In this document: piece after piece, positions 5,197 through 27,822 of the stretch
How the letters are laid out: the number at the start of each line of letters is the position of its first letter
How positions within the stretch are numbered: the stretch's first letter is position 1
Assembly: GCF_001412615.1 (NCBI RefSeq)
Contig: NZ_CP013011.1
Location: 1,980,001 to 2,012,000 of the forward strand
DNA length: 32,000 nucleotides
Reading direction: 5' to 3'
From: Pyrodictium delaneyi
GTDB lineage: Archaea; Thermoproteota; Thermoprotei_A; Sulfolobales; Pyrodictiaceae
Position numbers and translations under genes: made by a program
Notes under the pieces: model-generated
The model's database searches: none
The model's input: the letters and a program-made list of their open reading frames with translations, nothing else
What the model was told of the DNA's origin: nothing

Positions 5197-5630
5197 CCTT
5201 ATCCGAGCACAACAAACAACTAGGATACACATGGGCCGGTGAAGACGAGTCCGAAAACCGAGGTTGCGAGAGAATGGCTATGCGGAGTCTTCTCGCCCCA
5301 GAGGCCCGCCTCTAACAACATAACTGCCATCCTAGGAAGCCGCGAAACCCGGATATCCTCCCTCTACCTACACAGTTTTAGACCTGGACCTCTCGGGTGC
5401 CGCCGGGCCCCTGACAGCCCCGAAAGCCCTGGGGCCCACCTTGTGGATGAAGGGGCTCTGCGCGCCGGAACAACTATACCTCTCGTACTTATCCTCGCTT
5501 GATTAGGCCTCTTGTCTTGCACTAGGGTGTCTACGAGCGCTGTGATGAACGCGTCCTTCGTGCAGAGCAGCAGCGATGACTTGGAGGCCCCATTACTGAG
5601 CGAAAGGCATACATGTGGGAGGGGCGTGGA

Positions 5631-6293
5631 ATGCCGAGCAACATTGAGAGGAGGGTTGCCCAGGCACTTAGGAGGCTAGCGAGGAGGCGAAACTGTGTTT
5701 CTATAGCCGAAGTGGCGGCGGAAGCTAGGCTTACACCAAGCGACGTACGTGGAGCACTAGAAGGACTCGAGAAGAAACGGCTTGTGATTGTCTCGGGTGA
5801 CAGAGTCTGCTACACCGGTGGACCCGTGGATGAGCAGAGCTATGTTATTGGCCCCGAGCTGCGTCGTGTAATAAACGAGGTACGGTCTAGAAGGAGTATA
5901 GTAGCCTCCGTCTATGAGCTGGAGCGTGGACCTCTTAGACTCCTTGTGGTTGCAAGGCGAGACGGCATAGTGTTTGTTGTTCTACCGGTGTCGGGTAGAG
6001 AACCTACTGAGCGGCTAGTTGGCCTTGCTAGGAGGCTTGCACGTCTAGCTCGCCGTCTGGCTGAGGATGGCTGTCACGATCTCCCCGCTGGCCGCGGCAC
6101 ACCCAGACTGGTCGTACCGGTACTCGCGTCGGACTATGGTGCACCGAGGCTTGTCGAGGGCATAGTCTTTAGGCCCGCGAGAAGCCTCCTAGCTCTGATA
6201 ATTGGGCCAGAGCCTATACTATCTGACCCGTTTGCACGAATCTACGAGTGTAACCAGCAAGCTAGGCGAGAGGAATCTCAATATATCGAGTAG
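5631..6293 (+). CDS. Hypothetical protein: N-terminal winged-helix DNA-binding domain plus an uncharacterised Arg/Leu-rich C-terminal domain
   Basis: The ORF opens at 5613. I prefer ATG 5631 because GGGAGGGG lies 6 nt upstream of it. VSIAEVAAEARLTPSDVRGALEGLEKKRLV resembles MarR/TrmB-type wHTH. The C-terminal ~140 aa (LLVVARRDGIVFVVLPVSG..., LARRLARLARRLA repeat) is not recognisable to me. Confidence 0.6.
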   Translation: MPSNIERRVAQALRRLARRRNCVSIAEVAAEARLTPSDVRGALEGLEKKRLVIVSGDRVCYTGGPVDEQSYVIGPELRRVINEVRSRRSIVASVYELERGPLRLLVVARRDGIVFVVLPVSGREPTERLVGLARRLARLARRLAEDGCHDLPAGRGTPRLVVPVLASDYGAPRLVEGIVFRPARSLLALIIGPEPILSDPFARIYECNQQARREESQYIE

Positions 6294-8597: not shown

Positions 8598-9293
8598 GTG
8601 TGGAATACGAGGCTTGAACTATTAGACAAAACAGCACGTGTAAGGCTAGTTATTCAGCCGATAGCCTCTATTGAGAACCACGGCGTTCTTCCTCTAGGGG
8701 CTGACCTACTGATAGCTGACTGCGTCATGAAGAATATTCGGCTTCCTCGGGGCGTAGTTGTTGCCCCAACTATACCATATTCCACGGCGATCGAGCACCA
8801 GGAGCCGCGGGTCTCAGTTAACCCACAAATGTTTATACAATACCTAGTAGAGGTTGGCTCATCTCTCCTATCCATTGCCGACACATTGTTATTTGCCGTC
8901 TTCCATGGCGGAGCCTACCACGCAACATACCTGGCTGCAAGGATTCTACGCTCAATGGGTAACAATGTAGTCCTTTTCAACTTCTGGGACACAGTTACAA
9001 AGGCTATAGGATTGAAGGATGTCTTAGTTCATGCAGACTGCATTGAAGCCAGCATACTTCTTGCATGCGGCTATGATAAAGGTATCCGCGAGACAGAACA
9101 GGTAGATCCAGACTGCACACGTATTGCACCGCACTACCAGCCCTGGGTCTCCCTAGACGTGCCCGACCTCTATCCGCGAGATAGCGTTCCCGCTTCGAGA
9201 ACGCTCGGTGAGAAACTTCTGCAAGCAGCTAGCGCGCAGCTAAGAGAGCTTGTAGAGTCGATCTTGGAGCAGCTGGAAGCCTCTTCACGATAG
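8598..9293 (+). CDS. arfB: Creatininase-family protein, probable FAPy deformylase ArfB (riboflavin/F420 pathway)
   Basis: 231 aa, GTG start. SIENHGVLPLGADLLIA resembles the creatininase E-x-HG-x-LPLGTD metal motif, and AVFHGGAY resembles the NGHGGN motif. The family includes MJ0116 ArfB, and the gene adjoins the rib cluster. The motif is one residue shorter than canonical. Confidence 0.6.
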   Translation: MWNTRLELLDKTARVRLVIQPIASIENHGVLPLGADLLIADCVMKNIRLPRGVVVAPTIPYSTAIEHQEPRVSVNPQMFIQYLVEVGSSLLSIADTLLFAVFHGGAYHATYLAARILRSMGNNVVLFNFWDTVTKAIGLKDVLVHADCIEASILLACGYDKGIRETEQVDPDCTRIAPHYQPWVSLDVPDLYPRDSVPASRTLGEKLLQAASAQLRELVESILEQLEASSR

Positions 9294-10353
9294 ATATTAT
9301 GGATGAACTGCTCCACTCTATTTCCGGTATCTCTGCCACCAACAACCTGGCTATCGGCGCGCCTTCATCAACCATAACTGTGTCTAGGCGCAGCAGCTTC
9401 ATACAGTCAATAGATGCTGCACGAAGTAATGCTCTGGCTAGGAGTTCGGCTTTATCTCGGCCATCCTTATGTACAACCATATACGTAAACATTATCTCCT
9501 CGTCGACGTACGGCGGTATCCATGCCGCGTTATCAGTGCCTATACCAATCACGGTTTTGTCAAGGAGCTCTGGGAGCACGCTAAGCAGGGGAAGCCTTCC
9601 GAGATGATACATGTTGGATCTAGGACAGAATACTAGCCCTATACCCGACTCCGCTAACTCCATGATCTCGTCTCTATCGAGGTAGGTTAGGTGTATAGCT
9701 GCCGTAGGAGCTGCCTGGAGTACTATCTCATAATCTTTAGACTGATACAGCTCTAGTGTCTCGGATACATGCACGTGTACATGTCCATTGAACCGCCTAG
9801 CATAGGATGACAGTTCGGCGAACTCCTCTGGGCTCAGGTCGAATACAGTATCGAGACCTACACCACCAGCTTCGCCTAGTAGTTGTAGGTATGCGCCAAG
9901 ACTCTTCGTGAGGGGCTGACCTAGTATCCTTGCGCTTATTCCGGCTCGGGCTGTACTATTGTTTACTAGCTCTAAACCTCTTCTAGCTAGCTCTGCGTAT
10001 ACCCCGACATAGAGTATACCCTTTCTCTTCATGGAGTCGAGCACACGGCTAATCCTTTTATCTAGCTCTACTTGGTCTAGCTTCGAGAGTAGTTTGTACT
10101 TTAGCCCTGTAGGCAGTGCCACAAGCTCATGGAGAGGGAGGGTCTCCCCCGCTTCCGCTATGGAAGCGTCGAGAATATGTAAATGAGCGTTACAAAGAGC
10201 TGGGAGGAGCACTAGCCCTGAATATATCCTCCTAGACGGGCTGCACCCTTGACCTATACCCCTTACTCGTTGCTCATCATCAATGTCTATGCATGGCTTG
10301 TAAATTGGTCGCAGCTCATCACCCACGAGGGCAACAAGGACTTCTATTTGCAT
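9229..10353 (-). CDS. Amidohydrolase-superfamily deaminase (ATZ/TRZ, COG0402-like) embedded in the riboflavin cluster
   Basis: The ORF opens at 10401. I prefer ATG 10353 (MQIEVLV...), 4 nt after the ribH stop. Motifs: CNAHLHILD (HxH), HVHVHVSETLE, AIHLTYLD, FCPRSNMYHLG, GIGTDNAAW. This is the metal-ligand pattern of guanine/cytosine/MTA deaminase-type enzymes. Confidence 0.8.
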   Translation of the reverse strand: MQIEVLVALVGDELRPIYKPCIDIDDEQRVRGIGQGCSPSRRIYSGLVLLPALCNAHLHILDASIAEAGETLPLHELVALPTGLKYKLLSKLDQVELDKRISRVLDSMKRKGILYVGVYAELARRGLELVNNSTARAGISARILGQPLTKSLGAYLQLLGEAGGVGLDTVFDLSPEEFAELSSYARRFNGHVHVHVSETLELYQSKDYEIVLQAAPTAAIHLTYLDRDEIMELAESGIGLVFCPRSNMYHLGRLPLLSVLPELLDKTVIGIGTDNAAWIPPYVDEEIMFTYMVVHKDGRDKAELLARALLRAASIDCMKLLRLDTVMVDEGAPIARLLVAEIPEIEWSSSSIISIVKRLPAAPRSTLQALLAAR

Positions 10354-10357
10354 ACTC

Positions 10358-10825
10358 TTATTCAATGTATACTGTTTCTCCCTCGAATTTTGCCTCTTCA
10401 ATAGCCCGGAGCCTCCTCACTAGCTTAACAGCTGCCTCAACTGATCTACGTGCATAGTCATCTACGCGCTCTAGCGCCTGCATACGGTTCATCCCCGGCC
10501 CTGATATTCCAAGGGTTACTGGTTTACCGTACTTCTCGGCTAGGTCTACTAGTTTCCTTGCGACCTGGTGCGCTATCACTTCGTCGTGCTTAGTAGCACC
10601 AGTTATGATTGCCCCGAGAGCCACCACCGCATCCACGTCATCCTTGCGCAACAGCTTCTCCACGAGTAACGGTATGTCGTATGCGCCTGGCGCCCTTACC
10701 ACATACGTGACTGTAGCACCAAGAAATTTTGCATGGCTTAGAGCACGCTGCAACATGAGATAAGTGACATCATGGTTGAACTCGGATACGACTATTGCAA
10801 GCCGAATACCTTCACCTGCAGCCAC
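10358..10825 (-). CDS. ribH: 6,7-dimethyl-8-ribityllumazine synthase
   Basis: 155 aa. [31 protein letters not shown] and [14 protein letters not shown] match lumazine synthase. Confidence 0.92.
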
Positions 10826-10902: not shown

Positions 10903-11370
10903 CTAGACTCTCAAAGGGCCTGCGTCAGGATATCCCTGCCTTCTTCCTGTCCCGGCGCGCGCTGTTAGCACGTCCGGCCTGTATAGGAGTAGGTAGAGGT
11001 TCTCTGCATGCTTCTTAGCGCGGTCTACCGCGATCCGATAGAGGTCTTCCTCATTCTCTGCCTCGTCTTCATGCACCGTTACATCTATTATGTGGCGCTC
11101 AAGTTCTAGCTGTACGAGCTGTATAGCGAGACTGTAGACTGCATAGCTTATCTTATCAGTTATCGATGAACCTATCCAGCCTAGCACCATTCCGGCATCA
11201 CAATTCTCTTCTTTCATGATCTTCTTTATCTCTACTGGTACGTCCTTTATCCCCGGCACAGTGCGCCTTACTATTTGTACGCTAGGCATCAGTGTCTGCA
11301 AGGTATCTATAGCATATCTAGCCATGTCTACTCTAGCAAAGGTTGTATCTACAATACAGATCTTCGCCAA
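10903..11370 (-). CDS. ribC: Archaeal-type riboflavin synthase
   Basis: 155 aa. IVDTTFARVDMA..., TVPGIKDVPV, VHEDEAE, RQGYPDAGP align closely to my recollection of MJ1184. TTG start. Overlaps the ribB 3' end. Confidence 0.9.
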   Translation of the reverse strand: MAKICIVDTTFARVDMARYAIDTLQTLMPSVQIVRRTVPGIKDVPVEIKKIMKEENCDAGMVLGWIGSSITDKISYAVYSLAIQLVQLELERHIIDVTVHEDEAENEEDLYRIAVDRAKKHAENLYLLLYRPDVLTARAGTGRRQGYPDAGPLRV

Positions 11371-12040
11371 GCTTTTCCACCCTATCGATTATCTCATTTC
11401 CCTCAATCAGAGGGTAGCCCTTCTCCCTAGATACTCTTCTCGCATCCTCAATGCTCAGTGCATCTCCCTTCGAGAGCATCTCGACGATGACTGTTGAAGG
11501 CGTCATTCCAGCTAGTATTGCGAGATGGAGGGAGAGTTCCGTATGCCCTTTCCTCTCGTTAAGCCGACGACCTAGTAATATGGGCACGTGCCCTGGTGCT
11601 ACAAAGTTTGACTGGAAGTAGTTACGTGCTTCTCGAGTGTTGCCGTGTATTATCATTGTTAGTACCTTGTCAAGTTCGCGTATAGTAGTGGCGCGATCTG
11701 AGTCTCTTATCCCGGTTTTTACCCGTATGCTATTAACCCAAAGAGAGAACGCCGGTTTGTCGCCGTAGCCGAGTGTCTTACTAGCAAGCGGGGCTAGCTC
11801 GGGTATTGTTGAGATTATCTCGTATCCATACCTTAGCCCTACGATCCTTCCAGCCGGCTGGGGCATTGCATAGCATATGAGTCCTCCCGCGAGTGTACGC
11901 ATTTCGTAGATACGTTCAGTAGTAACCATGGATGCATGGATAACATAGTCTATCTCGTTCTCGCGGCCAGCTTCATCGTATATGAGGACAGGTATTCCTC
12001 TGCGAAACGCCTCTATGGCTTTTTCTAGTTGGTTGCTCAA
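11333..12040 (-). CDS. ribB: 3,4-dihydroxy-2-butanone 4-phosphate synthase
   Basis: 235 aa. GIPVLIYDEAGRENEIDYVIHAS, GLICYAM and RKGHTELSL are DHBP synthase signatures. Confidence 0.92.
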   Translation of the reverse strand: MSNQLEKAIEAFRRGIPVLIYDEAGRENEIDYVIHASMVTTERIYEMRTLAGGLICYAMPQPAGRIVGLRYGYEIISTIPELAPLASKTLGYGDKPAFSLWVNSIRVKTGIRDSDRATTIRELDKVLTMIIHGNTREARNYFQSNFVAPGHVPILLGRRLNERKGHTELSLHLAILAGMTPSTVIVEMLSKGDALSIEDARRVSREKGYPLIEGNEIIDRVEKLGEDLYCRYNLC

Positions 12041-12173: not shown

Positions 12174-12890
12174 CTATCGGCAAGTTACAGTTTCTTCTCC
12201 ACGTTTGTCCACATACACTCGACAACTCCTAGCACTCCTTATAACGGATAGCGCGTGAGCTGCGCGCGCTAGCGCAGCACGCGGATTATCGTCCACGCCT
12301 ATACCTACCTTATATCTCCCGTCACCTATTGCCTCCATGACCAACCCTAAGGCATCATCTATGTTCTCCTCTGGAGCAAATAGTATAATGTTGTCGCCTC
12401 CAAGATAGCTTGGTATATAGCCTCTTGGGAGAGCATCCTCTACAAGTCTGATATAGAGCCTCATTACCTCGGCAAAAGGCTGGAGAAAGCCCTTTCGTCG
12501 CCTCTCGTTGCTAACCATGTCTAGATCTATGTGGAGTGCCGCCACACCACCATCGTCGTAGTCGTCTATTGTTATACCTGGTTCTATGGGTACTCTGTCC
12601 CAGCCCGGACGATTTGTCGCAACTACTCTCATTGCGACCGGTACAGGGGATTCACGACTCACAACCCTGTATATCTCTTCGATGTTTTCTCTCGGTACAC
12701 CGTTCAACACTGCTACCATTATGTCGTGGCTGAACGGGACTATGTATCCTCCACTAGCTGCAGCAGCATCCATCGCTGCAAGGTATATTGCTGACTGCCG
12801 CTTCTGGATTATCCACTCTCTATCGTAACCTATCTCCTCTGTCCACTCACGGTACCCTATGAGTACTATAACGCCCGCCAGCAGCACCAC
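12174..12890 (-). CDS. arfA: GTP cyclohydrolase III (FAPy-forming, MJ0145 type)
   Basis: 238 aa. VIVLIGYREWTEE..., AALHIDLDMVS and YLGGDNIILFAPE are collinear with my recollection of M. jannaschii GCH III (IQIDNYGPWT, IAHIDINN, IGGDNFMAP). Confidence 0.88.
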   Translation of the reverse strand: MVLLAGVIVLIGYREWTEEIGYDREWIIQKRQSAIYLAAMDAAAASGGYIVPFSHDIMVAVLNGVPRENIEEIYRVVSRESPVPVAMRVVATNRPGWDRVPIEPGITIDDYDDGGVAALHIDLDMVSNERRRKGFLQPFAEVMRLYIRLVEDALPRGYIPSYLGGDNIILFAPEENIDDALGLVMEAIGDGRYKVGIGVDDNPRAALARAAHALSVIRSARSCRVYVDKRGEETVTCR

Positions 12891-12918: not shown

Positions 12919-13689
12919 CTAGCTATTCCCTCCCGGAGCATCTTTCACTAGATCTGCTATTTTCCCGGAGAGACACGGCTCTATGTAAGGCTCAGCAGCA
13001 GGAGGACAACACGTTGACTCTACACGATAAGCTACGTGTACACAATTGCCACAAGGACACTTCTCAAGGCATAAGAGCCTTAGCCGCGGAGATAGGCTGG
13101 TTGTAGGGAACCCCTCCGCCTGAGGGTCGTCGAACACATTCCTCCCAGCCGCAAAGACGTATGGAGTGTATGTTACCCGTATTTCGTCTACGAGCCCGGC
13201 TTTGAGCATGTTATAGTTTAGTATACCACCACCCTCAATGAGCAGCCGGCGTACATCATACTCCATGACTAGTATCTCCATCGCTTTAGCAAGGTCTACT
13301 ACGCCATTCTCGCCGACTACGTGGACGCGAACCCCCTTAGCCTCTAGACGCTTAATCTTCTCGCTATCACGTACAGCCGTGAATACTATGACAGGGGGAC
13401 CAGGTTCACTTACTAGGCGTAGCTCATCGTGTAGCCGCAGTCTGCCATCGACTACTACACGGTAGTACTTGTCGCTGCGAGGGTTTAGCCTTTTCCGGAG
13501 CGAGGGATTGTCTATTAGGACCGTAGAGGCGCCAACCATTACTGCCTCGGCTGCGCCTCTCAGCAGCCGAAGCCTGGCAAAGTCATAGTTACAGCTTAAC
13601 AAGCTATACCGTGTAGATGATGCTATCCTCCCGTCAAGCGTAGCAGTAGAGAATATTATCGTGTACGGCCGCGTCAACGACCTAGTCAA
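12919..13689 (-). CDS. arfC: 2,5-diamino-6-ribosylamino-4(3H)-pyrimidinone 5'-phosphate reductase (RibD C-terminal-domain family) with a Cys-rich C-terminal extension
   Basis: 256 aa. RPYTIIFSTATLDGRIAS and LIEGGGILNYNMLKAGLVDE are the DHFR-like RibD_C motifs. The TTG start overlaps the Pop5 TGA stop (cTTGA). Confidence 0.88.
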   Translation of the reverse strand: MTRSLTRPYTIIFSTATLDGRIASSTRYSLLSCNYDFARLRLLRGAAEAVMVGASTVLIDNPSLRKRLNPRSDKYYRVVVDGRLRLHDELRLVSEPGPPVIVFTAVRDSEKIKRLEAKGVRVHVVGENGVVDLAKAMEILVMEYDVRRLLIEGGGILNYNMLKAGLVDEIRVTYTPYVFAAGRNVFDDPQAEGFPTTSLSPRLRLLCLEKCPCGNCVHVAYRVESTCCPPAAEPYIEPCLSGKIADLVKDAPGGNS

Positions 13690-14237
13690 GGTAGTCTCCG
13701 CCTAGCGATGGCTAGTGCACGCTTAGCCCTCTTTATAGTGCCAGTCGTCCGTACCGGGATTATCACTGCACGGCTATCACCGATACGCCGTACTAGTCCT
13801 AAAGCTGCAAGTACGAGGTACTTAGTGTCGTGGGATACACGTAGTATACCCGCAGCCCTTTCAGGGTCATAGTATACTAGCTGTAGACGGGCCAGTGCTA
13901 CCGTTAGCTGGCCAGTTAGCCTCTCAGCCGCCCGGATTATTGCCCGCTCTACTTCCTGGGGCGATGGAGGCTGTTCACCTTCATAGACTATTATGAATGC
14001 TATGTAGCGGCGTCGTCTACGTCTACGCAGCTTCTCCAGAAACTTCTCCGCATCACTGCTCTGGAGAGCATAGCTTGCCGCTTTTAGGATACTACCCATT
14101 TCCTTGGCTAAGCTATCTAATCGCCTCTCTAGGAGTGCTACGCGCTTCTCAAGCATTCTCTGACCATGGACGCTCAAGGCTACGTAACCAGCAAAGCCGA
14201 CGGCTAGAACCGCCAGTATAGCCGTGTCTAGCTGCAA
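13686..14237 (-). CDS. rnp2: RNase P protein component 2 (Pop5/Rpp14 family), possibly with an N-terminal hydrophobic/coiled-coil extension
   Basis: The C-terminal ~110 aa (RRRYIAFIIVYEG...GILRVSHD...VRTTGTIKRAKRAL) match Pop5. The longest ORF starts at TTG 14237, 2 nt after the rnp3 stop. An in-frame ATG (MGSILKAAS...) about 46 codons downstream would give a canonical-length protein. Confidence 0.85.
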   Translation of the reverse strand: MQLDTAILAVLAVGFAGYVALSVHGQRMLEKRVALLERRLDSLAKEMGSILKAASYALQSSDAEKFLEKLRRRRRRRYIAFIIVYEGEQPPSPQEVERAIIRAAERLTGQLTVALARLQLVYYDPERAAGILRVSHDTKYLVLAALGLVRRIGDSRAVIIPVRTTGTIKRAKRALAIARRRLP

Positions 14238-14239
14238 TT

Positions 14240-14908
14240 CTATACAGCCTCCCCGCCTGGGCTTGGATGACGCGCCTTCGTATTAACTATGGCAGCTGGG
14301 TAGCCCGTTATCGCGAGTTTCGCGATGTTTTCCGGCAGCCCAAATGCTACTAGCATTGCATGCACTGTTCTGGGATGCCACATTTCCCACTTAGTCCTGG
14401 CACCACTAGTCACGACCAATGGGGCCTCGTATGCTGCTGCACGCCTCGCTATAATCATTGTACCGCGGAGGCCTGCACGTGGATCACCGCCGTGAAGTAG
14501 TGGTAGAAACCTGAGCTCAACAGCTGCCCCACCCTCGCGTAGCATAGCAGCTTGGCTCTTGTCCATATACCTGGCCATACCGGGTGAGAGTACTACTAGC
14601 CCTACTCGGGGATCCCTGGCAGCTAGTCTAACAGCTTCAGCTGACTTAGGCTTCACGGCTACTAGGTCGAAGTTCAGAGCTATTCTCTTCAGTATGTTGA
14701 CTGTCTTGCCCCAGGAGTCGGCTTCGATTGTTACACGTGTTAGAGCCTCGATGCCCTCCTCTGTGAACACTCTAGCGTATTCACGTGCACGCTGAGGATC
14801 ACTGTTCTCGATTGCTACGAGCCTATACCCCATTATCTTTGCGAGTGAAGCCATCTCCATAGCGTCGCGGAGGCTGCGCGGCTCGAGGGCTAGATCCATG
14901 GACTTCAA
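14240..14908 (-). CDS. rnp3: RNase P protein component 3 (Rpp30 family, TIM barrel)
   Basis: 222 aa. MDLALEPRS...GYRLVAIEN, DLVAVKPKSAEAVRLAARDPRVGLVVL fits the Rpp30/PHP-like fold. Canonical position upstream of Pop5. Confidence 0.85.
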   Translation of the reverse strand: MKSMDLALEPRSLRDAMEMASLAKIMGYRLVAIENSDPQRAREYARVFTEEGIEALTRVTIEADSWGKTVNILKRIALNFDLVAVKPKSAEAVRLAARDPRVGLVVLSPGMARYMDKSQAAMLREGGAAVELRFLPLLHGGDPRAGLRGTMIIARRAAAYEAPLVVTSGARTKWEMWHPRTVHAMLVAFGLPENIAKLAITGYPAAIVNTKARHPSPGGEAV

Positions 14909-15360
14909 GATACGAGCCCCAGCTCCTTGAGAACATTTATGGCTTTGTCGAGGCGCGGAGTACCTCTAAGATTTATCATTACATGTATCACATCGTCACC
15001 GTCGTAGAATCTTAGCTCGCCTAGGAAGGCGTCTTGCTTGCTGAACCTTAGGTAGAACCTACCCTGCTTGGCATCATACCTGTTCTCCAGCATCATGGCA
15101 ATGATCTTTTTGCTCTCTTTGTCGAGCCTCTCTGCTAGTCCACGTACAAACTCCTCCGCAGCATTACCTTCGAGCCTTACTACTATTCGCGTTATTGGGT
15201 TATTGTAGTGCCCCTCGAGCGTATATAGTGTAAATTCCACTTTTTCGTGGAGACTCTCTGGTACAATGTTGAGTATGGCTTGCTTAACCCGGTTGACATC
15301 CTCGGTTGCGTGTGCATGGGCAGCTATCTCTACCCTTATGACCTTGCTGGGCGCGGACAT
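14905..15360 (-). CDS. DUF54/COG1325 RNA-binding protein (predicted exosome-associated subunit)
   Basis: 151 aa. VEIAAHAHATEDVNRVKQAILNIVP... and the length match the UPF0201/DUF54 family. That family is classically found between L15e and Rpp30 in the superoperon. 4-nt overlap with rnp3. Confidence 0.7.
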   Translation of the reverse strand: MSAPSKVIRVEIAAHAHATEDVNRVKQAILNIVPESLHEKVEFTLYTLEGHYNNPITRIVVRLEGNAAEEFVRGLAERLDKESKKIIAMMLENRYDAKQGRFYLRFSKQDAFLGELRFYDGDDVIHVMINLRGTPRLDKAINVLKELGLVS

Positions 15361-21599: not shown

Positions 21600-21845
21600 T
21601 TACCTCCTCCTACCTAGCCTCCTGGCTTCACGCTCAGTCTCTCTTAGTATAACTATGTCGCCTAGCCTTACAGGGCCGAGGACGTTACGCGTCAGCACGC
21701 GACCCTTGTCACGGCCCTCAAGCACACGCACGCGCACTTGTATGACCTCACCGTGTACTCCGGTACGGCCTATTATTTGTATGACCTCGGCGGGGAAGCC
21801 TATCTCCTCGATAATGTTGAAGTCCTTGTCCCTGCGCTGGCTCAA
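21600..21845 (-). CDS. rps28e: 30S ribosomal protein S28e (eS28)
   Basis: 81 aa. [58 protein letters not shown] is canonical S28e. TTG start. Confidence 0.93.
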
Positions 21846-21883
21846 GCCTCTCTAGCCCCCGCAGAGCCCCTAGCGAAAGCGGG

Positions 21884-21891
21884 CTATAAAA
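21884..21891. promoter_or_regulatory. Single TATA-like element (CTATAAAA/TTTTATAG) shared by divergent rps28e and the HD-like gene
   Basis: It is the only A/T-rich element in the 87-nt divergent spacer. It lies about 39 nt from the S28e TTG (21845) and about 42 nt from ATG 21933. Confidence 0.45.
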
Positions 21892-21932
21892 CACAATGCC
21901 CCCAACAACCCTCGCCTCTGGGGGCGTTCTAC

Positions 21933-22676
21933 ATGGTACGCGAAGCTGTTGTCCACGCCCTCTCTAGGATACGCGGCATAAACCCCGAGGAGCTACTCTC
22001 TGGAGTTCCACACCATGCTGTTCTCACGGCGTTCTATGCAGCAAAGCTATGCGGGCTTGAAAACTGCAGCGAGGAGACAGCCGCCGTAGCCGCTCTAGCC
22101 TACAGCTATCCTCGCGTTACCACTATGATTGATAAACTCCCACACCACATAGCCCACCATGTACGCAAGGTGCTAGAAGAAGCAGAGGATGTACACCTAC
22201 GCTCGCCCTCATCCCAGTACACGATGATAGTACTTGACGCCGATGTACTGGCACGTATAGGCGCACTATCACTGTTTAACCAGTTTACAGCATACCATGC
22301 AACCATAACAGATATGCTTCAGGCTGCACTCGACTCACTAAGCTATGCCGCCGCGTCCGATTACATAATATACACTCAATCAGCCAAGAAGCTAGCTAGC
22401 CGCATGAAACCACATACTATAGCCTACTTCAACTGGCTCGTGGAGGAGCTAGCTAACTTAGGCATAAAGGCTAGGCTGCGTACTGAGAGCACCGTAGGTG
22501 GCGTCGTCTCCTATATAGACCTACTCTCATGCCCATGCGGTGAAACTGTAGTCAAGGATATAGCTGTGAAGCCTACGGAGAAGTGTATGCGCTATACCTT
22601 ACGCTACACGTGCAGGAGCTGCGATTTCAATGCAGAAGTGTCTACATGCATCCCCGAATCCACTAGGACAAGGTAG
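21933..22676 (+). CDS. Hypothetical protein: HD-domain-like helical N-terminal region (HD dyad apparently absent) plus a C-terminal 4-Cys zinc ribbon
   Basis: The track ORF opens at 21738, but its first 65 codons are antisense to rps28e. ATG 21933 follows the TATA element and a GGGGG purine patch. VPHHAVLTAFYAAKLCG ... VLDADVLARIGAL resembles the HD-superfamily first His and terminal Asp. LAYSYPR sits where LLHDIGK is expected. The C-terminus has CPCG...CRSC. Confidence 0.6.
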   Translation: MVREAVVHALSRIRGINPEELLSGVPHHAVLTAFYAAKLCGLENCSEETAAVAALAYSYPRVTTMIDKLPHHIAHHVRKVLEEAEDVHLRSPSSQYTMIVLDADVLARIGALSLFNQFTAYHATITDMLQAALDSLSYAAASDYIIYTQSAKKLASRMKPHTIAYFNWLVEELANLGIKARLRTESTVGGVVSYIDLLSCPCGETVVKDIAVKPTEKCMRYTLRYTCRSCDFNAEVSTCIPESTRTR

Positions 22677-23256: not shown

Positions 23257-25032
23257 TTACTCGTGCGCAAATACCATTACTACTTTCCTCACGGACCCGT
23301 CTTCCGTCTCCAGAGCGTCTACTCTTGCGAAGCCTATGCGTACTAGCTGCACTATGTCTCCTTGCTTTAGTTCTGCTGCTGCCTGCTCTACTATCCCGCG
23401 TCGCTGTATTAGGTCTAGACCTTCAGGTACTAGGAGCTCTATTTGGAGCGATGCGTCGCCCGGGATCCACTGTATTATAAGGGCCCGGTGCTTACGCGCA
23501 TCCTCTAGGCCGAGGCTATGGAATCTAGCTCTTATCTTATCTCCTTCAATGTCTACTATTTCTACATTGAAAGCCTCCATGAGCCTTACAATACTGCCTT
23601 TCTTTAGTAGCTTCTTATCGCTCTGCGATATATAGACTGTTGCTGTTGGTCCTTCTAGGCTTATTCTTCTTGAACCTAGTTTGCCCGACGGATGATAGGG
23701 TATTTCAAATTCGCGTTTCTCCCATGGCAAGTTTTCTATAATCATTGGCGTCGGCGGTATGGCTGCCATTATTCTACGAGCTGTGGGGTCTACTATCACG
23801 CGGTTTGTGGCAGCTAGGTTGGTATAGCTTATACTTGCATCAGTGTACTTAACGCCTACATCTAGTATTAGTTTCCTTATAGCCTCAGCTGTTATTCCAC
23901 GCCTCCTTAGACCAGCTATAGTCGCAAATCGTGGATCGTCTATTCCACTGCTGACGCCTTGGTCAAGGAGCTGCTTTAGTGCGGACTTGCTCATTATGAA
24001 GCCTTCAAGCTTTAAGCGTCCAAAGTGTACAACGTGTGGATACTTCCAGCCCATGTACTCGTATACGTACTTCTGCTTGATCGTGTTCTGCATATGCTCC
24101 TTGGCACGGAGTATGTGTGTTACACCCATTAGCCAGTCATCAACGCCGGCTGCGAAGTTGTAGGTAGGCCAGACGATGTAGCGATCGCCGACTAGCGGGT
24201 GAGGATAGCGGCTTGTATCGATTATCCGGAATGCTACCCAGTCGCGGACGCTCGGGTCTGGGTGATTTGGATCAGTCTTTATCCTAACGACTGCCTCGCC
24301 CTCGGCGAAGCGCCCTTCAAGCATCTGGTCCCATAGTTCTAGGTTCTCCTCTGCTGTACGTAGCCGGGGCGGGTACTCGGAGAGCTTGCCAGAGTTACGG
24401 TATTTCCTAAACTCTTCACCCGGCTTATCATCTACATAGGCGTGGCCTTTCTCTAGAAGCTCCTTTATAATCTGGTAGTATATTGGCATGCGTAGGCTCT
24501 GTATGTATTCCTCGTCCCAGCGGATGCCTAGCCACTCTAGATCCTGCTTTATCAGCTCGTATGCCTCGGGTAGCGGGGTCTTTGTACGGGGATCCGTGTC
24601 CTCGAATCGAAGTATCATCTTCCCCTTGTATATCACCTTGTACTCGTAACTGAGTATAGCCGGCCTCGCATTGCCAAGGTGTATCACGAAGTCAGGGTTA
24701 GGCGCAAAGCGTGTAACAATTTTGCCCTCCTCTGCCCCGGGGAGCGGAGGTAGCGTCTTCTCCTGCTCCTTAGGCTTGCTGAGCTTCTCTAGCACCCAGC
24801 TATACTTCTCTTCGAGTAGCCTCTTCTGCTCATCCAAAGAGAGCTTGTTTACCTCAGCTACGACCTCGCGTACTATCGCCACTATCTCACGGGCATGAGG
24901 CCTTAGCTCGGGCTTTTCAGCCATAATCTTGCCCATTACGGGACCTACAGCAGCACGCCCACCGTGTTCAACAGCATTGACAAGCGCGTAAGCTCTTGCT
25001 AGCTCGCGCAGTTCGTCAGGATTGTACTTCAA
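23257..25032 (-). CDS. gltX: Glutamyl-tRNA synthetase (archaeal type)
   Basis: 591 aa. FAPNPDFVIHLGNARPAILSY (HIGH-type motif), RFEDTDPRTK, and a KMSKS-like FIMSKS. Confidence 0.93.
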   Translation of the reverse strand: MKYNPDELRELARAYALVNAVEHGGRAAVGPVMGKIMAEKPELRPHAREIVAIVREVVAEVNKLSLDEQKRLLEEKYSWVLEKLSKPKEQEKTLPPLPGAEEGKIVTRFAPNPDFVIHLGNARPAILSYEYKVIYKGKMILRFEDTDPRTKTPLPEAYELIKQDLEWLGIRWDEEYIQSLRMPIYYQIIKELLEKGHAYVDDKPGEEFRKYRNSGKLSEYPPRLRTAEENLELWDQMLEGRFAEGEAVVRIKTDPNHPDPSVRDWVAFRIIDTSRYPHPLVGDRYIVWPTYNFAAGVDDWLMGVTHILRAKEHMQNTIKQKYVYEYMGWKYPHVVHFGRLKLEGFIMSKSALKQLLDQGVSSGIDDPRFATIAGLRRRGITAEAIRKLILDVGVKYTDASISYTNLAATNRVIVDPTARRIMAAIPPTPMIIENLPWEKREFEIPYHPSGKLGSRRISLEGPTATVYISQSDKKLLKKGSIVRLMEAFNVEIVDIEGDKIRARFHSLGLEDARKHRALIIQWIPGDASLQIELLVPEGLDLIQRRGIVEQAAAELKQGDIVQLVRIGFARVDALETEDGSVRKVVMVFAHE

Positions 25033-25531
25033 TCTCCTTTACCACCTCCCGCGGCGCTACCAAGACTATGTTCCTATCCGGCCCGGATTCAGGCGAAGAG
25101 TAGATGTACACTATAACACCTTCCACATGGCTTCTAATATGACGCACCTCAAACTTCCGTGTCGCTATAAAGCCTATAGTATCCTCAATACCGACCTTGC
25201 TGCCCTCACACACCTCTACGGCTACACGCATTCCCTCTAGAGGTATAGGCTCAACGTAGCTTCCAGCCTCTACTAGGAGTCCACGCCGATAGTCCGGCGG
25301 AAGTACCACTATGAAGCTCCTTGTACATTTCTTGGCGACAAGGTCTACTATACTGTCGAGTTCCACGCCATATATCGCCTTTCCAAAACATCTAGCATCC
25401 TTTGGACACTCCATAGAACGTTTTGCTATACTGTCCCTTAATACTAGGAACTCGTCAGAATCCAGGCCCTCTATAAATAATTGGGGAATAAGGTAGGGTG
25501 ATTTGTGACAGCCCTCGACCTGCTCCGACAC
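25016..25531 (-). CDS. Conserved archaeal hypothetical protein with a C-terminal lipoyl/biotinyl-like beta-barrel (DUF2118-like)
   Basis: The ORF opens at TTG 25579, which would overlap idsA by 41 nt. GTG 25531 lies 8 nt after the idsA stop and is preferred. The C-terminal GMRVAVEVCEGSKVGIEDTIGFIATRKFEVRHIRSHVEGVIVYI looks like a hybrid-motif barrel. The family call is from memory only. Confidence 0.5.
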   Translation of the reverse strand: MSEQVEGCHKSPYLIPQLFIEGLDSDEFLVLRDSIAKRSMECPKDARCFGKAIYGVELDSIVDLVAKKCTRSFIVVLPPDYRRGLLVEAGSYVEPIPLEGMRVAVEVCEGSKVGIEDTIGFIATRKFEVRHIRSHVEGVIVYIYSSPESGPDRNIVLVAPREVVKEIEVQS

Positions 25532-25538
25532 GCCTGTG

Positions 25539-26543
25539 CTACCTCGTACGGGATACCGCAAATCTCGCAAGCTCTTCAAGCATTTCCCTGTACTCGTTCT
25601 CCGGAAGCACCTTTAACGCTGCTAGGGCTTGTTCGACATACCGGCGTGCCAGCTCCTCAGCATACTCTATGCCACCAGCCTCCTTTATGAGCTTGGCTGC
25701 CTCTTCAAGTTCTTCGCGGCCTGCATCGCGGTTTCCAAGCACTTTTTCAAGCTTCTCGCGCGCATCACCCTCGAGCTTGCTTAGAGCGTACAGTATTGGC
25801 AGAGTCTTTTTCCCCTCTCTTATGTCGCTATAGATGGGCTTACCTAGCTCACTTTCTTCACCTGCAATACCCAGTATGTCGTCACGTATCTGGAATGCTA
25901 TGCCAAGACTCTTACCGTAGCTTGCAAGCGACGATAGTATGTTCTCGTCACTTGTAGCTACGAGGCCGCCAAGGACCGCAGATGCTTCGAAGAGGGCTCC
26001 TGTCTTTTTATATATCATCTTGAGGTAATCCTCTACGTCTACATACTCTTCTTCCTCGAACATCATATCCATTGCCTGACCTTCGGCTACGATAGAGGAC
26101 GCTTGTGCTAACACACGTACAGCTTTTGCTACTCTCTCAGCTGGTACACCCTTGTCACGTGCGTCTGTTAACGCCTCAAACGCCTTGGCATAGAGCAAGT
26201 CACCAGCCGTTATAGCTAGAGGTTCGCCCCATAGCTTGTGCACTGTCGGCACGCCTCGACGAAAATCGTCACGGTCCATTATATCGTCGTGAACTAGGGT
26301 GAAGTTGTGAACCAGCTCGACAGCTGCTGCAAATGGGAGAGCCTTCTCGGCTTCCTCTCCTAGGGCTTCTGTTGTAGCTACAACAATGACAGGGCGTAGT
26401 CTCTTACCACCAGCTCTTATAAGGTGGAGTGCAGCATTATATAGCTCTTCGGGCTCGCCATGGACACGTGCATAAATGTAGCCGTCAACGAGCCCTGCTA
26501 CTCTTGTTATATAGCTGCGCAGCCTCTCGGAGAGCTGAGTCAA
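25539..26543 (-). CDS. idsA: Geranylgeranyl diphosphate synthase (trans-polyprenyl synthase)
   Basis: 334 aa. FARM LVHDDIMDRDDFRRG and SARM FQIRDDILG. TTG start with TAGGAGGT upstream. Confidence 0.92.
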   Translation of the reverse strand: MTQLSERLRSYITRVAGLVDGYIYARVHGEPEELYNAALHLIRAGGKRLRPVIVVATTEALGEEAEKALPFAAAVELVHNFTLVHDDIMDRDDFRRGVPTVHKLWGEPLAITAGDLLYAKAFEALTDARDKGVPAERVAKAVRVLAQASSIVAEGQAMDMMFEEEEYVDVEDYLKMIYKKTGALFEASAVLGGLVATSDENILSSLASYGKSLGIAFQIRDDILGIAGEESELGKPIYSDIREGKKTLPILYALSKLEGDAREKLEKVLGNRDAGREELEEAAKLIKEAGGIEYAEELARRYVEQALAALKVLPENEYREMLEELARFAVSRTR

Positions 26544-26577
26544 GACCGTCTTAACCTCCTAGAGCCTATATCCGAGG

Positions 26578-27720
26578 CTACGGGGTAGGCGAGCAGCCAC
26601 TACCGAGCTTGAATAACAACCGGGGGCCATTAAGGTATAACTCAGCGCTAATCCCCCGTGCTTCCATGAGGCTTAGCAACCGCTGGCCTAGTATTATGTT
26701 GGTGCTCCGCAACTCTGCAAGATCCTTTGAACCAGTTAGAAACATTGCTATCCTGAGCTCCATTATCATCCTCTTAAGGAGGTTTAGGATCGCGTGTCCA
26801 CCTCCCTGCACATATGCATTTATGACGGGTAAGGCTAGCCCTGCAACATCCGCCCCGAGAGCTATGGCCTTGGCGACATCAAGACCCGATCTTATGCCAC
26901 CACTGGCTATTATACAAGCATCTGGCGCAGCCCATCTAGTCTCAACAATGGCTTGTGCAGTTGGCACTCCAAAACCAGAGAATGTTGACGCTGCAGCGGC
27001 TAGTAATTCGTCGCCTTTTGCTCGAGCTCTGTACTGTTCTACTTTTACCCAGCTCGTACCACCGGCACCCGCTACGTCTATGATTTTTATACCCACTGCC
27101 CTTAGCAGAGTAGCCGCCTCTAGACCTATGCCATGACCGGTCTCCTTGACTATTATCGGCTTTCCCAGTACGTCTGCTAGTTCTCTTATCTTGTCTACCA
27201 CACCAACATAATCTGTATCGCCTTCTGGCTGAAAAGCCTCCTGTGCAGCATTAAGATGTATTGCCACAGCGTCAGCATCAATCATTTCTATTGCCTTTGT
27301 TAACTCTTTAATGCCATAACCTTTGACTAATTGTGGCGCACCTATATTGGCAACTATCACTGCTGAAGGAGCACATTTACGCACAATAGAGAACGTATAG
27401 GCTAGGTTTGGATTCTCTATTGCTGCACGTTGACTACCAACACCCATCATAAGCCCTAGCTCTTCAACAGCTTTAGCAATAGCACAGTTTATCTCAGCTG
27501 CAACAGCATGTCCACCAGTCATACCGGTAACCATTATTGGCGCTGACAGCCTCTTTCCAAGAAACTCGATGCTTGTGTCGATATCGTTGAGAGACGTCTC
27601 GGGAAGCGCTTTGTATACAAGCACTACATCATCGAGCAATGCTGAAGTCCAATCATGGTCTACACGACTGTCGACGGTTATTCTGATATGATCAAGCTTC
27701 CTAGGCGATGTAGTCGCCAT
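26578..27720 (-). CDS. fni: Isopentenyl-diphosphate delta-isomerase type 2 (FMN-dependent)
   Basis: RKLDHIRI..., MTGG, VKETGHGI, ASGGIRSGLDVAKAIALGA are IDI-2 TIM-barrel motifs. The ORF opens at GTG 27729. ATG 27720 has GGTGG 5 nt upstream. Confidence 0.92.
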   Translation of the reverse strand: MATTSPRKLDHIRITVDSRVDHDWTSALLDDVVLVYKALPETSLNDIDTSIEFLGKRLSAPIMVTGMTGGHAVAAEINCAIAKAVEELGLMMGVGSQRAAIENPNLAYTFSIVRKCAPSAVIVANIGAPQLVKGYGIKELTKAIEMIDADAVAIHLNAAQEAFQPEGDTDYVGVVDKIRELADVLGKPIIVKETGHGIGLEAATLLRAVGIKIIDVAGAGGTSWVKVEQYRARAKGDELLAAAASTFSGFGVPTAQAIVETRWAAPDACIIASGGIRSGLDVAKAIALGADVAGLALPVINAYVQGGGHAILNLLKRMIMELRIAMFLTGSKDLAELRSTNIILGQRLLSLMEARGISAELYLNGPRLLFKLGSGCSPTP

Positions 27721-27822
27721 TTTAGCCACCTTTTACTACGCCATAATTGTTATCAAGGGATAGTCTGATTGTACTACTCATAAACCATAAACAAATACGC
27801 ACGGGTAATGGTTCCGTGCCGC

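What the first reader, a model, noticed from the sequence alone, without database searches (positions are those of the whole stretch)
9229..10353. ATZ/TRZ-type amidohydrolase inside a complete archaeal riboflavin operon: candidate for the archaeal pyrimidine deaminase step
Seen in sequence:
- The minus-strand run arfC, arfA, ribB, ribC, ribH, plus convergent arfB, covers GTP cyclohydrolase III, the deformylase, the reductase, DHBP synthase, lumazine synthase and riboflavin synthase.
- The one extra gene starts 4 nt after the ribH stop. It carries a full deaminase-type amidohydrolase ligand set (HxH, HVHVSE, H, CPRSN, GTD).

Established knowledge:
- The archaeal/fungal route needs deamination of 2,5-diamino-6-ribitylamino-4(3H)-pyrimidinone 5'-phosphate after the reductase step.
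- The known enzymes for this step (RibD N-terminal domain, Rib2) have the unrelated CDA fold.
- To my knowledge this step is unassigned in most archaeal genomes. I cannot verify the current literature.

Inference:
- This may be a non-orthologous displacement by a COG0402-type aminopyrimidine deaminase.
- Alternatively it could be a DadD/MTA-type deaminase salvaging radical-SAM by-products.
Basis: partly seen in the sequence, partly recalled or inferred. Interest (0 to 1): 0.7.

Follow-up and report, generated by a model that had tools for sequence, protein, structure and literature searches.

The report
Predicted archaeal riboflavin pyrimidine deaminase gene
The gene is real and very probably encodes the still-unproven deaminase of archaeal vitamin B2 synthesis. 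The same enzyme family (MJ0699, "PyrD") was already proposed for this step in 2010 and 2017, so this is a confirmation and not a discovery.

Summary
Window 9229-10353 (-) encodes a 374-aa amidohydrolase-fold protein with a complete deaminase-type metal and acid set: H57/H59, H195-x-x-E198, H221 and D274. It is the last gene of the run arfC-arfA-ribB-ribC-ribH and converges on an ArfB-like creatininase-family gene.

The protein belongs to the MJ0699 / NCBIfam PRK07213 family. Its Methanocaldococcus lauensis orthologue is already annotated "Pyrimidine deaminase archaeal predicted". Rodionova et al. 2017 name this candidate PyrD, citing Osterman et al. 2010. Pfeiffer et al. 2021 list MJ0699 and HVO_2483 as still untested.

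My context census finds the family beside riboflavin or F420 genes in six divergent lineages with different gene orders:
- Pyrodictiaceae
- Sulfolobales
- Nitrosopumilus, where it lies between arfA and arfC
- Methanomethylicia, where it lies between cofH and a HAD phosphatase
- Njordarchaeia
- two MAGs, one labelled Pyrodictiaceae and one Desulfurococcales

Seventeen active-site and motif positions are kept in nearly every one of 16 sequences at 18-39% identity between lineages.

The DadD/MTA and guanine deaminase alternatives fail their family tests. No enzymology exists in the literature I could search. Verdict: already-known prediction, good experimental target, low novelty.

The parts
9229..10353 (-). 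Amidohydrolase-fold deaminase of the MJ0699 / PRK07213 / 'PyrD' family. It is the candidate 2,5-diamino-6-ribitylamino-4(3H)-pyrimidinone 5'-phosphate deaminase. An alternative TTG start lies at 10401.
   Evidence: Pfam PF01979 and NCBIfam PRK07213 at E 1.3e-37. 30% identity to MJ0699, E 1e-32. AF2 model pLDDT 91.9 with Foldseek hits to COG0402 deaminases. Family residues conserved.
10412..10416 (-). GGAGG Shine-Dalgarno-like motif, 10 nt upstream of the alternative TTG start (10401) of the amidohydrolase gene and inside the 3' end of ribH.
   Evidence: Read directly from the sequence. Homologues are called with the longer N-terminus.
10358..10825 (-). ribH, 6,7-dimethyl-8-ribityllumazine synthase.
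   Evidence: TIGR00114, 148 bits, above cut-off. PF00885.
10903..11370 (-). ribC, archaeal pentameric-type riboflavin synthase.
   Evidence: TIGR01506, 191 bits, above cut-off.
11333..12040 (-). [quoted passage not shown]
   Evidence: NF004437, 295 bits, above cut-off.
12174..12890 (-). arfA, GTP cyclohydrolase III.
   Evidence: PF05165, 107 bits.
12919..13689 (-). arfC, 2,5-diamino-6-ribosylamino-pyrimidinone 5'-phosphate reductase (RibD_C type). Its start overlaps the stop of the RNase P Rpp14 gene by 4 nt.
   Evidence: PF01872, 127 bits; TIGR01508, 171 bits against a cut-off of 186. Coordinates.
8598..9293 (+). Creatininase-family gene, ArfB-like formamide hydrolase (deformylase). It is convergent with the amidohydrolase gene and overlaps its 3' end by 65 nt.
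   Evidence: PF02633, 80 bits. The same arrangement occurs in Pyrodictium occultum and in Pyrodictiaceae MAGs.

Best explanation
The gene encodes a mononuclear-metal (beta/alpha)8-barrel deaminase of the amidohydrolase superfamily (COG0402 branch). It most likely performs the pyrimidine deamination step of archaeal riboflavin, and where present F420, biosynthesis.

Proposed pathway position. ArfA, ArfB and ArfC turn GTP into 2,5-diamino-6-ribitylamino-4(3H)-pyrimidinone 5'-phosphate. This enzyme then hydrolyses the 2-amino group to give 5-amino-6-ribitylamino-2,4(1H,3H)-pyrimidinedione 5'-phosphate. After dephosphorylation, RibH uses that product together with the RibB product, and RibC makes riboflavin.

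Proposed chemistry, by analogy with guanine, cytosine and adenosine deaminases of this superfamily:
- H57, H59, H195 and D274 hold the metal.
- The metal-bound hydroxide attacks C2.
- E198 of the HxxE motif and H221 shuttle protons to the ring nitrogen and the leaving ammonia.
- The family-invariant D62, K85, E121, R245, N275 and R358 are proposed to recognise the pyrimidinone, the ribityl chain and the phosphate.

What is shown: the fold, the ligand and acid motifs, family membership and gene linkage. What is inferred: the substrate, the order of steps and the roles of the non-ligand residues.
For: 1. Fold and catalytic set. Pfam Amidohydro_1 matches. The AF2 model has pLDDT 91.9. The best Foldseek matches are COG0402 deaminases, topped by an isocytosine (2-amino-4-oxopyrimidine) deaminase, at TM about 0.75. 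The HxH, HxxE, H and D motifs are present.

2. Family. PRK07213 is the best NCBIfam model by 28 orders of magnitude. 78 of 79 family representatives match it. MJ0699 is a member and aligns with the window protein at 30% identity, E 1e-32.

3. Linkage in independent lineages with different gene orders:
- Pyrodictiaceae: arfC-arfA-ribB-ribC-ribH-AH, convergent arfB.
- Acidianus: ribB-ribC-ribH-arfA-AH.
- Nitrosopumilus: ribE-ribB-ribH-arfA-AH-arfC.
- Methanomethylicia: arfA-cofG-ech-cofH-AH-HAD. CofH consumes 5-amino-6-ribitylaminouracil, the dephosphorylated product of the proposed reaction.
- Njordarchaeia: AH, one gene, then arfC.
- Two MAGs (L018 labelled Pyrodictiaceae, L025 labelled Desulfurococcales): AH, one or two genes, then arfC.

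4. Active site. Seventeen positions are kept in nearly every one of 16 sequences that share only 18-39% identity across lineages: P51, N55, H57, H59, D62, K85, E121, H195, E198, H221, C243, R245, N247, G272, D274, N275 and R358. Thirteen are identical in all 16; N55, R245 and R358 each vary in one or two. D62 sits where guanine and isoxanthopterin deaminases have the Gln of HxHxxQ. From my own knowledge that Gln contacts the substrate.

5. Literature. Archaea reduce before they deaminate and lack RibD-type deaminase orthologues. This family was proposed as 'PyrD' from clustering and co-occurrence, and it lies in RbkR regulons of 15 genomes (PMC5397151).
Against: - No enzymatic or genetic test of any family member was found in the searchable literature.
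- The window protein scores below the curated PRK07213 cut-off (129.6 against 294 bits). It sits on a divergent branch, 22-27% identical to the euryarchaeal and thaumarchaeal members.
- The family is not next to rib genes in many lineages. These are Acidilobaceae and other Desulfurococcales, where it sits beside SCP2-thiolase-DUF35 genes, and also Methanotorris, Methanobacterium, a Thermoplasmatales MAG and locus L041.
- I could not search the source genome for a CDA-fold deaminase.
- I could not inspect the model's pocket for a ribityl or phosphate site.
- No gene fusions to other Rib domains were seen.
Confidence: 0.7

Rival explanations
1. It works in the riboflavin/F420 pathway but at a different step. 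It might deaminate the ribosyl intermediate before reduction, as in bacteria. Or it might act as an alternative formamide hydrolase for the ArfA product in genomes that lack a clustered ArfB.
For: Gene order does not fix the step. In Nitrosopumilus the gene lies between arfA and arfC. The Nitrosopumilus and Acidianus clusters show no creatininase-type arfB. COG0402 also contains an iminohydrolase, HutF.
Against: In Pyrodictiaceae the gene coexists with an ArfB-like gene in the same cluster, so the two are unlikely to be redundant. The HxxE deaminase signature is invariant. The M. jannaschii reductase acts on the diamino ribosyl compound, which puts deamination after reduction (Graupner et al. 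2002, as cited in PMC5397151).
Confidence: 0.1
2. It is a purine, nucleoside or pterin salvage deaminase (DadD/MtaD-type, guanine, isocytosine or pterin deaminase) that only happens to sit beside the rib genes.
For: The nearest solved structures are MTA/SAH/adenosine deaminases (TM0936, profile E 1e-41), isocytosine/8-oxoguanine deaminase and guanine deaminase. Many family members are not linked to rib genes.
Against: - There is no hit to the 5'-deoxyadenosine deaminase (PRK07228) or MTA/SAH deaminase (PRK15493) models at E <= 0.01.
- The guanine deaminase model scores 20.6 bits against a cut-off of 375.
- Identity to all solved enzymes is 13-19%.
- Family-specific residues differ from them: D62 in place of Gln or Met, N275 in place of Gly, R358 in place of His.
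- Linkage to rib or cofH genes recurs in six divergent lineages with rearranged orders, which chance adjacency does not explain.
Confidence: 0.1
3. It is a metabolite-repair or damage-control hydrolase that removes a reactive or dead-end by-product of the diaminopyrimidine intermediates, and is not a biosynthetic enzyme.
For: Linkage to rib genes would also be expected for a pathway-associated repair enzyme. The intermediates are chemically reactive (general knowledge). No experiment distinguishes this reading from the biosynthetic one.
Against: The pathway has an unfilled essential deaminase step in the same genomes (PMC5397151, PMC8305020). Filling that gap is the more economical reading. 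The position between cofH and a HAD phosphatase in Methanomethylicia fits a biosynthetic role.
Confidence: 0.05

Closest known systems
MJ0699 / HVO_2483 family (NCBIfam NF005552 = PRK07213 'chlorohydrolase'; SEED role 'Pyrimidine deaminase archaeal predicted'; 'PyrD' of Rodionova et al. 2017)
   Same: Full-length homology: 30% identity to MJ0699, E 1e-32. The conserved residue set is almost identical; MJ0699 has V at P244, A at S246 and A at W278. The same clustering with arfA, arfC, ribH and ribB that motivated the published prediction is seen here.
   Different: The window protein lies on a divergent Pyrodictiaceae-type branch, 22-27% identical to the euryarchaeal and thaumarchaeal members. 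It scores below the curated model cut-off (129.6 against 294 bits). It has Q146 where most members have R. No family member has been tested experimentally.
COG0402 deaminases with solved structures: TM0936 MTA/SAH/adenosine deaminase, isocytosine/8-oxoguanine deaminase (7ww2), guanine deaminase (2uz9), isoxanthopterin deaminase (2paj)
   Same: (beta/alpha)8 barrel plus small beta-sandwich domain. HxH, H, H and D metal site with an HxxE proton shuttle. Several of these enzymes deaminate the same 2-amino-4-oxopyrimidine substructure.
   Different: Only 13-19% identity. Asp replaces the HxHxxQ Gln. The motifs GLK, CPRSN and GTDN and the residue R358 are family-specific. The proposed substrate carries a ribityl 5'-phosphate, unlike any of those enzymes' substrates.
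RibD N-terminal domain / fungal Rib2 (CDA-fold pyrimidine deaminases of riboflavin synthesis)
   Same: The proposed reaction is the same as that of Rib2: deamination of the ribityl diamino intermediate after reduction (PMC8256712).
   Different: The fold is unrelated: a cytidine-deaminase fold with a Cys/His zinc site, against an amidohydrolase TIM barrel. If the prediction holds, this is a non-orthologous displacement.
DadD (MJ1541, 5'-deoxyadenosine deaminase)
   Same: Same superfamily branch and an archaeal distribution.
   Different: No match to its NCBIfam model PRK07228 at E <= 0.01. Different gene context.

Membership tests
MJ0699 / PRK07213 family (predicted archaeal pyrimidine deaminase, 'PyrD') | Full-length homology to MJ0699, with PRK07213 as the best-matching curated model. 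| tested here: met
   30% identity over 331 aa, E 1e-32. PRK07213 E 1.3e-37 against 4.8e-9 for the next model. MJ0699 identified as P0431.
MJ0699 / PRK07213 family (predicted archaeal pyrimidine deaminase, 'PyrD') | Score at or above the curated NCBIfam cut-off (294 bits). | tested here: not met
   129.6 bits. The Methanomethylicia member passes with 330 bits. The window protein is a divergent branch of the wider family and not a core equivalog by NCBI's threshold.
MJ0699 / PRK07213 family (predicted archaeal pyrimidine deaminase, 'PyrD') | Family-invariant residues: P51, H57, H59, D62, K85, E121, H195, E198, H221, C243, N247, G272, D274, N275, R358. | tested here: met
   All are present in the window protein. 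All are shared with MJ0699, Nitrosopumilus, Acidianus, Methanomethylicia and Njordarchaeia members.
MJ0699 / PRK07213 family (predicted archaeal pyrimidine deaminase, 'PyrD') | Chromosomal clustering with riboflavin biosynthesis genes. | tested here: met
   The window gene is operonic with ribH, ribC, ribB, arfA and arfC. Five further lineages show linkage.
MJ0699 / PRK07213 family (predicted archaeal pyrimidine deaminase, 'PyrD') | Deaminase activity on 2,5-diamino-6-ribitylamino-4(3H)-pyrimidinone 5'-phosphate. | not testable with these tools
None was reported in the literature searched.
Amidohydrolase superfamily, COG0402 deaminase branch | (beta/alpha)8 barrel fold. | tested here: met
   AF2 pLDDT 91.9, pTM 0.92. 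Foldseek probability 1.00 and TM 0.62-0.77 to 50 COG0402 chains.
Amidohydrolase superfamily, COG0402 deaminase branch | HxH (strand 1), H (strand 5) within HxxE, H (strand 6) and D (strand 8). | tested here: met
   H57/H59, H195/E198, H221 and D274 lie at the C-terminal ends of the predicted strands. They align with the ligands of TM0936.
DadD / MtaD (5'-deoxyadenosine, MTA/SAH deaminases) | Match to the curated models PRK07228 and PRK15493. | tested here: not met
   Neither model appears among the hits at E <= 0.01.
Guanine deaminase | TIGR02967 at or above its cut-off, and the HxHxxQ motif. | tested here: not met
   20.6 bits against a cut-off of 375. Asp62 aligns with the Gln.
RibD N-terminal / Rib2 CDA-fold deaminase | Cytidine/deoxycytidylate deaminase zinc-binding domain. 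| tested here: not met
   Only PF01979 is found in this protein. No CDA domain was found in the 31 window ORFs scanned.

The most novel reading that the evidence does not exclude
The family really is the archaeal 2,5-diamino-6-ribitylamino-pyrimidinone 5'-phosphate deaminase. That would be an amidohydrolase-fold enzyme replacing the CDA-fold RibD/Rib2. The step was predicted in 2010 but has never been demonstrated. This hyperthermophile orthologue would be a convenient protein with which to prove it and to solve the structure. A further lead is the small HAD hydrolase immediately downstream of the family member in Methanomethylicia (arfA-cofG-ech-cofH-AH-HAD). It could be the equally unassigned archaeal 5-amino-6-ribitylaminouracil 5'-phosphate phosphatase.
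Probability: 0.65. Interest if true: 0.5.

Novelty: already known. Interest (0 to 1): 0.3.

Why it matters
The deaminase is one of the last enzymes of archaeal riboflavin and F420 biosynthesis without experimental proof. A confirmed amidohydrolase-fold enzyme would be a clear case of non-orthologous displacement. It would also correct many 'chlorohydrolase' and 'amidohydrolase family protein' annotations.

The candidate family has been in the literature and in SEED annotations for over a decade. This window therefore adds another clear, thermostable member and extra context evidence, not a new idea.

Tried and rejected
A narrower one (A4) worked but returned only Thermoproteota MAGs.
- I looked for gene fusions of the family to other Rib domains in ten unusually long members. 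None was found.
- I looked for the Methanomethylicia HAD neighbour in all other loci and in the window. It occurs only in the two Methanomethylicia loci.
- I tried to identify the source genome by exact protein look-up. It is not on record. The closest matches are 94% to a JGI metagenome protein, 75% to a 'Pyrodictium delaneyi' MAG and 62% to P. occultum.
- Literature searches for MJ0699, HVO_2483, 'arfD' and for deaminase with archaea and riboflavin found no biochemical characterisation. The supplement of PMC5397151 that lists PyrD genes is not held.
- Rejected readings: DadD/MtaD, guanine deaminase and atrazine/triazine chlorohydrolase. The last is only a historical name.
- I could not obtain model coordinates, so the pocket was not inspected.
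Full report
**Observation.** The minus-strand ORF 9229-10353 is real. It matches Pfam Amidohydro_1.

The neighbouring genes are as described:
- ribH (10358-10825)
- archaeal-type ribC (10903-11370)
- ribB (11333-12040)
- arfA / GTP cyclohydrolase III (12174-12890)
- arfC, an RibD_C-type reductase (12919-13689)
- a convergent creatininase-family, ArfB-like gene (8598-9293)

The 4-nt spacer between the ribH stop and the ATG at 10353 is correct. However, an upstream in-frame TTG at 10401 is preceded by GGAGG, and homologues are called at 385-392 aa. The start may therefore overlap ribH. The rest of the window is housekeeping: exosome, proteasome, SBDS, RNase P subunits, ribosomal proteins and an isoprenoid gene group. 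No CDA-fold deaminase appears in the 31 ORFs scanned. Five further ORFs were placed only by synteny with Pyrodictium occultum.

**What the protein is.**
- An AlphaFold2 model built on 12 homologues is confident (pLDDT 91.9, pTM 0.92).
- Foldseek against the PDB returns only COG0402 amidohydrolase-superfamily enzymes at 13-19% identity and TM about 0.62-0.77. The top hit is an isocytosine-specific deaminase. It is followed by triazine and atrazine hydrolases, MTA/SAH/adenosine deaminases, guanine deaminase and aminofutalosine deaminase.
- By profile, the nearest solved sequence is TM0936 (E 1e-41).
- The metal ligands and the HxxE glutamate align with those of TM0936. They lie at the C-terminal ends of the predicted barrel strands.
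- Among curated NCBIfam models the best is PRK07213 'chlorohydrolase' (E 1.3e-37). The next is 4.8e-9.
- The models for 5'-deoxyadenosine deaminase and MTA/SAH deaminase do not match at E <= 0.01. The guanine deaminase model scores 20.6 bits against a cut-off of 375.

**Family and literature.**
- An exhaustive profile search finds 396 cluster representatives at E <= 1e-30. Of the 79 aligned, 78 match PRK07213.
- Cluster look-ups show that the family contains MJ0699 (UniProt Q58110, originally 'atrazine chlorohydrolase isolog'). Its Methanocaldococcus lauensis orthologue is deposited as 'Pyrimidine deaminase archaeal predicted'.
- The window protein aligns with MJ0699 at 30% identity over 331 residues, E 1e-32.
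- Rodionova et al. 2017 (PMC5397151) state that RibD-type deaminase orthologues are apparently missing in Archaea. [quoted passage not shown] For the proposal they cite Osterman, Overbeek & Rodionov 2010. They list PyrD in RbkR regulons of 15 genomes.
- Pfeiffer et al. 2021 (PMC8305020) name HVO_2483 and MJ0699 as these candidates and say experimental confirmation is required.
- Two 2026 riboflavin reviews do not report an archaeal deaminase. Searches for MJ0699, HVO_2483 and related terms found no characterisation.

**Independent check of the linkage.** I examined 41 loci.

| Lineage | Loci | Arrangement |
|---|---|---|
| Pyrodictiaceae and close relatives | L001-L010, L034 (P. occultum) | Rpp14-arfC-(arfA)-ribB-ribC-ribH-AH, convergent arfB, then thiF and thiI |
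| Acidianus brierleyi | L038 | ribB-ribC-ribH-arfA-AH |
| Nitrosopumilus | L036 | ribE-ribB-ribH-arfA-AH-arfC, with overlapping genes |
| Methanomethylicia MAGs | L015, L019 | arfA-cofG-enoyl-CoA hydratase-cofH-AH-HAD hydrolase |
| Njordarchaeia MAG | L040 | AH, one gene, then arfC |
| Two MAGs (L018 labelled Pyrodictiaceae, L025 Desulfurococcales) | L018, L025 | AH, one or two genes, then arfC |

In the Methanomethylicia cluster, cofG and cofH both score above their curated cut-offs. CofH uses 5-amino-6-ribitylaminouracil, which is the dephosphorylated product of the proposed reaction.

No linkage is seen in these lineages:
- Acidilobaceae and other Desulfurococcales MAGs, where the conserved neighbours are SCP2-, thiolase- and DUF35-like genes by my reading of the sequences
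- Methanotorris
- Methanobacterium
- a Thermoplasmatales MAG
- locus L041

Linkage recurs with rearranged orders in lineages whose proteins share only 21-37% identity. Inherited synteny alone does not explain that.

**Active site.** Sixteen sequences from these lineages were compared. Seventeen positions are kept in nearly every one: P51, N55, H57, H59, D62, K85, E121, H195, E198, H221, C243, R245, N247, G272, D274, N275 and R358. Thirteen are identical in all 16; N55, R245 and R358 vary in one or two sequences.
- D62 aligns with the Gln of the HxHxxQ motif of guanine and isoxanthopterin deaminases. From my own knowledge that Gln contacts the substrate.
- N275 replaces the Gly of GTDG in TM0936, and R358 replaces a His.

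The family thus has the general deaminase machinery plus its own specificity residues. These are not those of the MTA/SAH, 5'-deoxyadenosine or guanine enzymes. Assigning the basic residues K85, R245 and R358 to the phosphate, and D62, E121 and N275 to the ring and ribityl chain, is inference. I had no access to model coordinates.

**Mechanism proposed.** A single divalent metal is held by H57, H59, H195 and D274 and activates water. The hydroxide attacks C2 of 2,5-diamino-6-ribitylamino-4(3H)-pyrimidinone 5'-phosphate. E198 and H221 move protons and ammonia leaves. The product, 5-amino-6-ribitylamino-2,4-pyrimidinedione 5'-phosphate, is dephosphorylated by a still unknown phosphatase. RibH then condenses it with the RibB product, and RibC forms riboflavin. 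With this gene, the cluster encodes every step from GTP and ribulose 5-phosphate to riboflavin except the phosphatase.

**Rivals.**
- A different step in the same pathway (ribosyl substrate, or deformylase) is possible. The coexisting ArfB-like gene and published M. jannaschii biochemistry argue against it.
- A salvage deaminase that is adjacent by chance fails the family tests and does not explain the repeated linkage.
- A metabolite-repair role cannot be excluded without genetics.

**Limits.**
- The window protein falls below the curated PRK07213 cut-off and sits on a divergent branch.
- Many family members are unlinked to rib genes.
- The source genome could not be identified or searched for a CDA-fold enzyme.
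- Nothing here is biochemical.

**Verdict.** The idea is already published and embedded in annotation systems, so novelty is low. The open question, experimental proof of the archaeal deaminase, remains worthwhile. This hyperthermophile protein is a reasonable target for it.

Noticed in passing
L019 5253-11734 and L015 190-4053 (Methanomethylicia MAGs): The cluster is arfA-cofG-enoyl-CoA hydratase-cofH-AH-HAD hydrolase. The 193-aa HAD gene directly downstream of the family member is a possible candidate for the unassigned archaeal 5-amino-6-ribitylaminouracil 5'-phosphate phosphatase (EC 3.1.3.104). It was found only in these two loci.
   Followed up: partly
window 9229-9293: The amidohydrolase gene and the convergent ArfB-like gene overlap by 65 nt at their 3' ends. 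The same 65-nt overlap is present in Pyrodictium occultum (L034 11103-11167). Overlaps of similar length occur in several Pyrodictiaceae MAGs.
   Followed up: partly
window 10399-10416: An alternative TTG start for the amidohydrolase lies at 10401, with GGAGG 10 nt upstream, inside ribH. Gene callers used the equivalent long start in homologues (385-392 aa). Hyperthermus homologues also carry a Ser/Arg-rich N-terminal extension.
   Followed up: partly
window 12919-15360: The riboflavin genes follow RNase P protein genes directly on the same strand (PF01877 RNA_binding, p30, Rpp14). The Rpp14 stop overlaps the arfC start by 4 nt. The Rpp14-arfC junction is conserved in P. occultum and in several MAGs (L002, L005, L006), which suggests co-transcription of unrelated functions.
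   Followed up: partly
L013, L016, L017, L020, L021, L023, L024, L026, L027, L030, L031: In Acidilobaceae and other Desulfurococcales MAGs the family member is flanked by a conserved set: a membrane protein with no family hit upstream, and SCP2-like, thiolase-like and DUF35-like genes downstream. No rib genes are adjacent. The downstream three were identified by eye from the sequences, not by a family search. The reason for the association is unknown.
   Followed up: no
L040 6001-8915 (Njordarchaeia MAG): The family member is separated from arfC by a PF02649 (FolE2/MptA-type GTP cyclohydrolase) gene on the opposite strand.
   Followed up: no
window 5613-6293 (+), 21738-22676 (+), 28563-29372 (-): Three sizeable ORFs have no Pfam match. 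The first, next to thiI, has homologues at the same position in P. occultum and in Pyrodictiaceae MAGs (cluster c19 in my clustering, L034 14016-14714).
   Followed up: no
window 25016-28644: An isoprenoid gene group lies on the minus strand: an amino-acid-kinase-family gene (isopentenyl phosphate kinase-like), an FMN_dh-family gene (type 2 IPP isomerase-like), a polyprenyl synthase and a DUF2118 gene.
   Followed up: no
alignment position 146 of the window protein: Most family members have Arg in the G-R-P motif after strand 3. The Pyrodictiaceae-type branch (window, P. occultum, Hyperthermus, L011, L041) has Gln instead, and Acidilobus has Thr.
   Followed up: no
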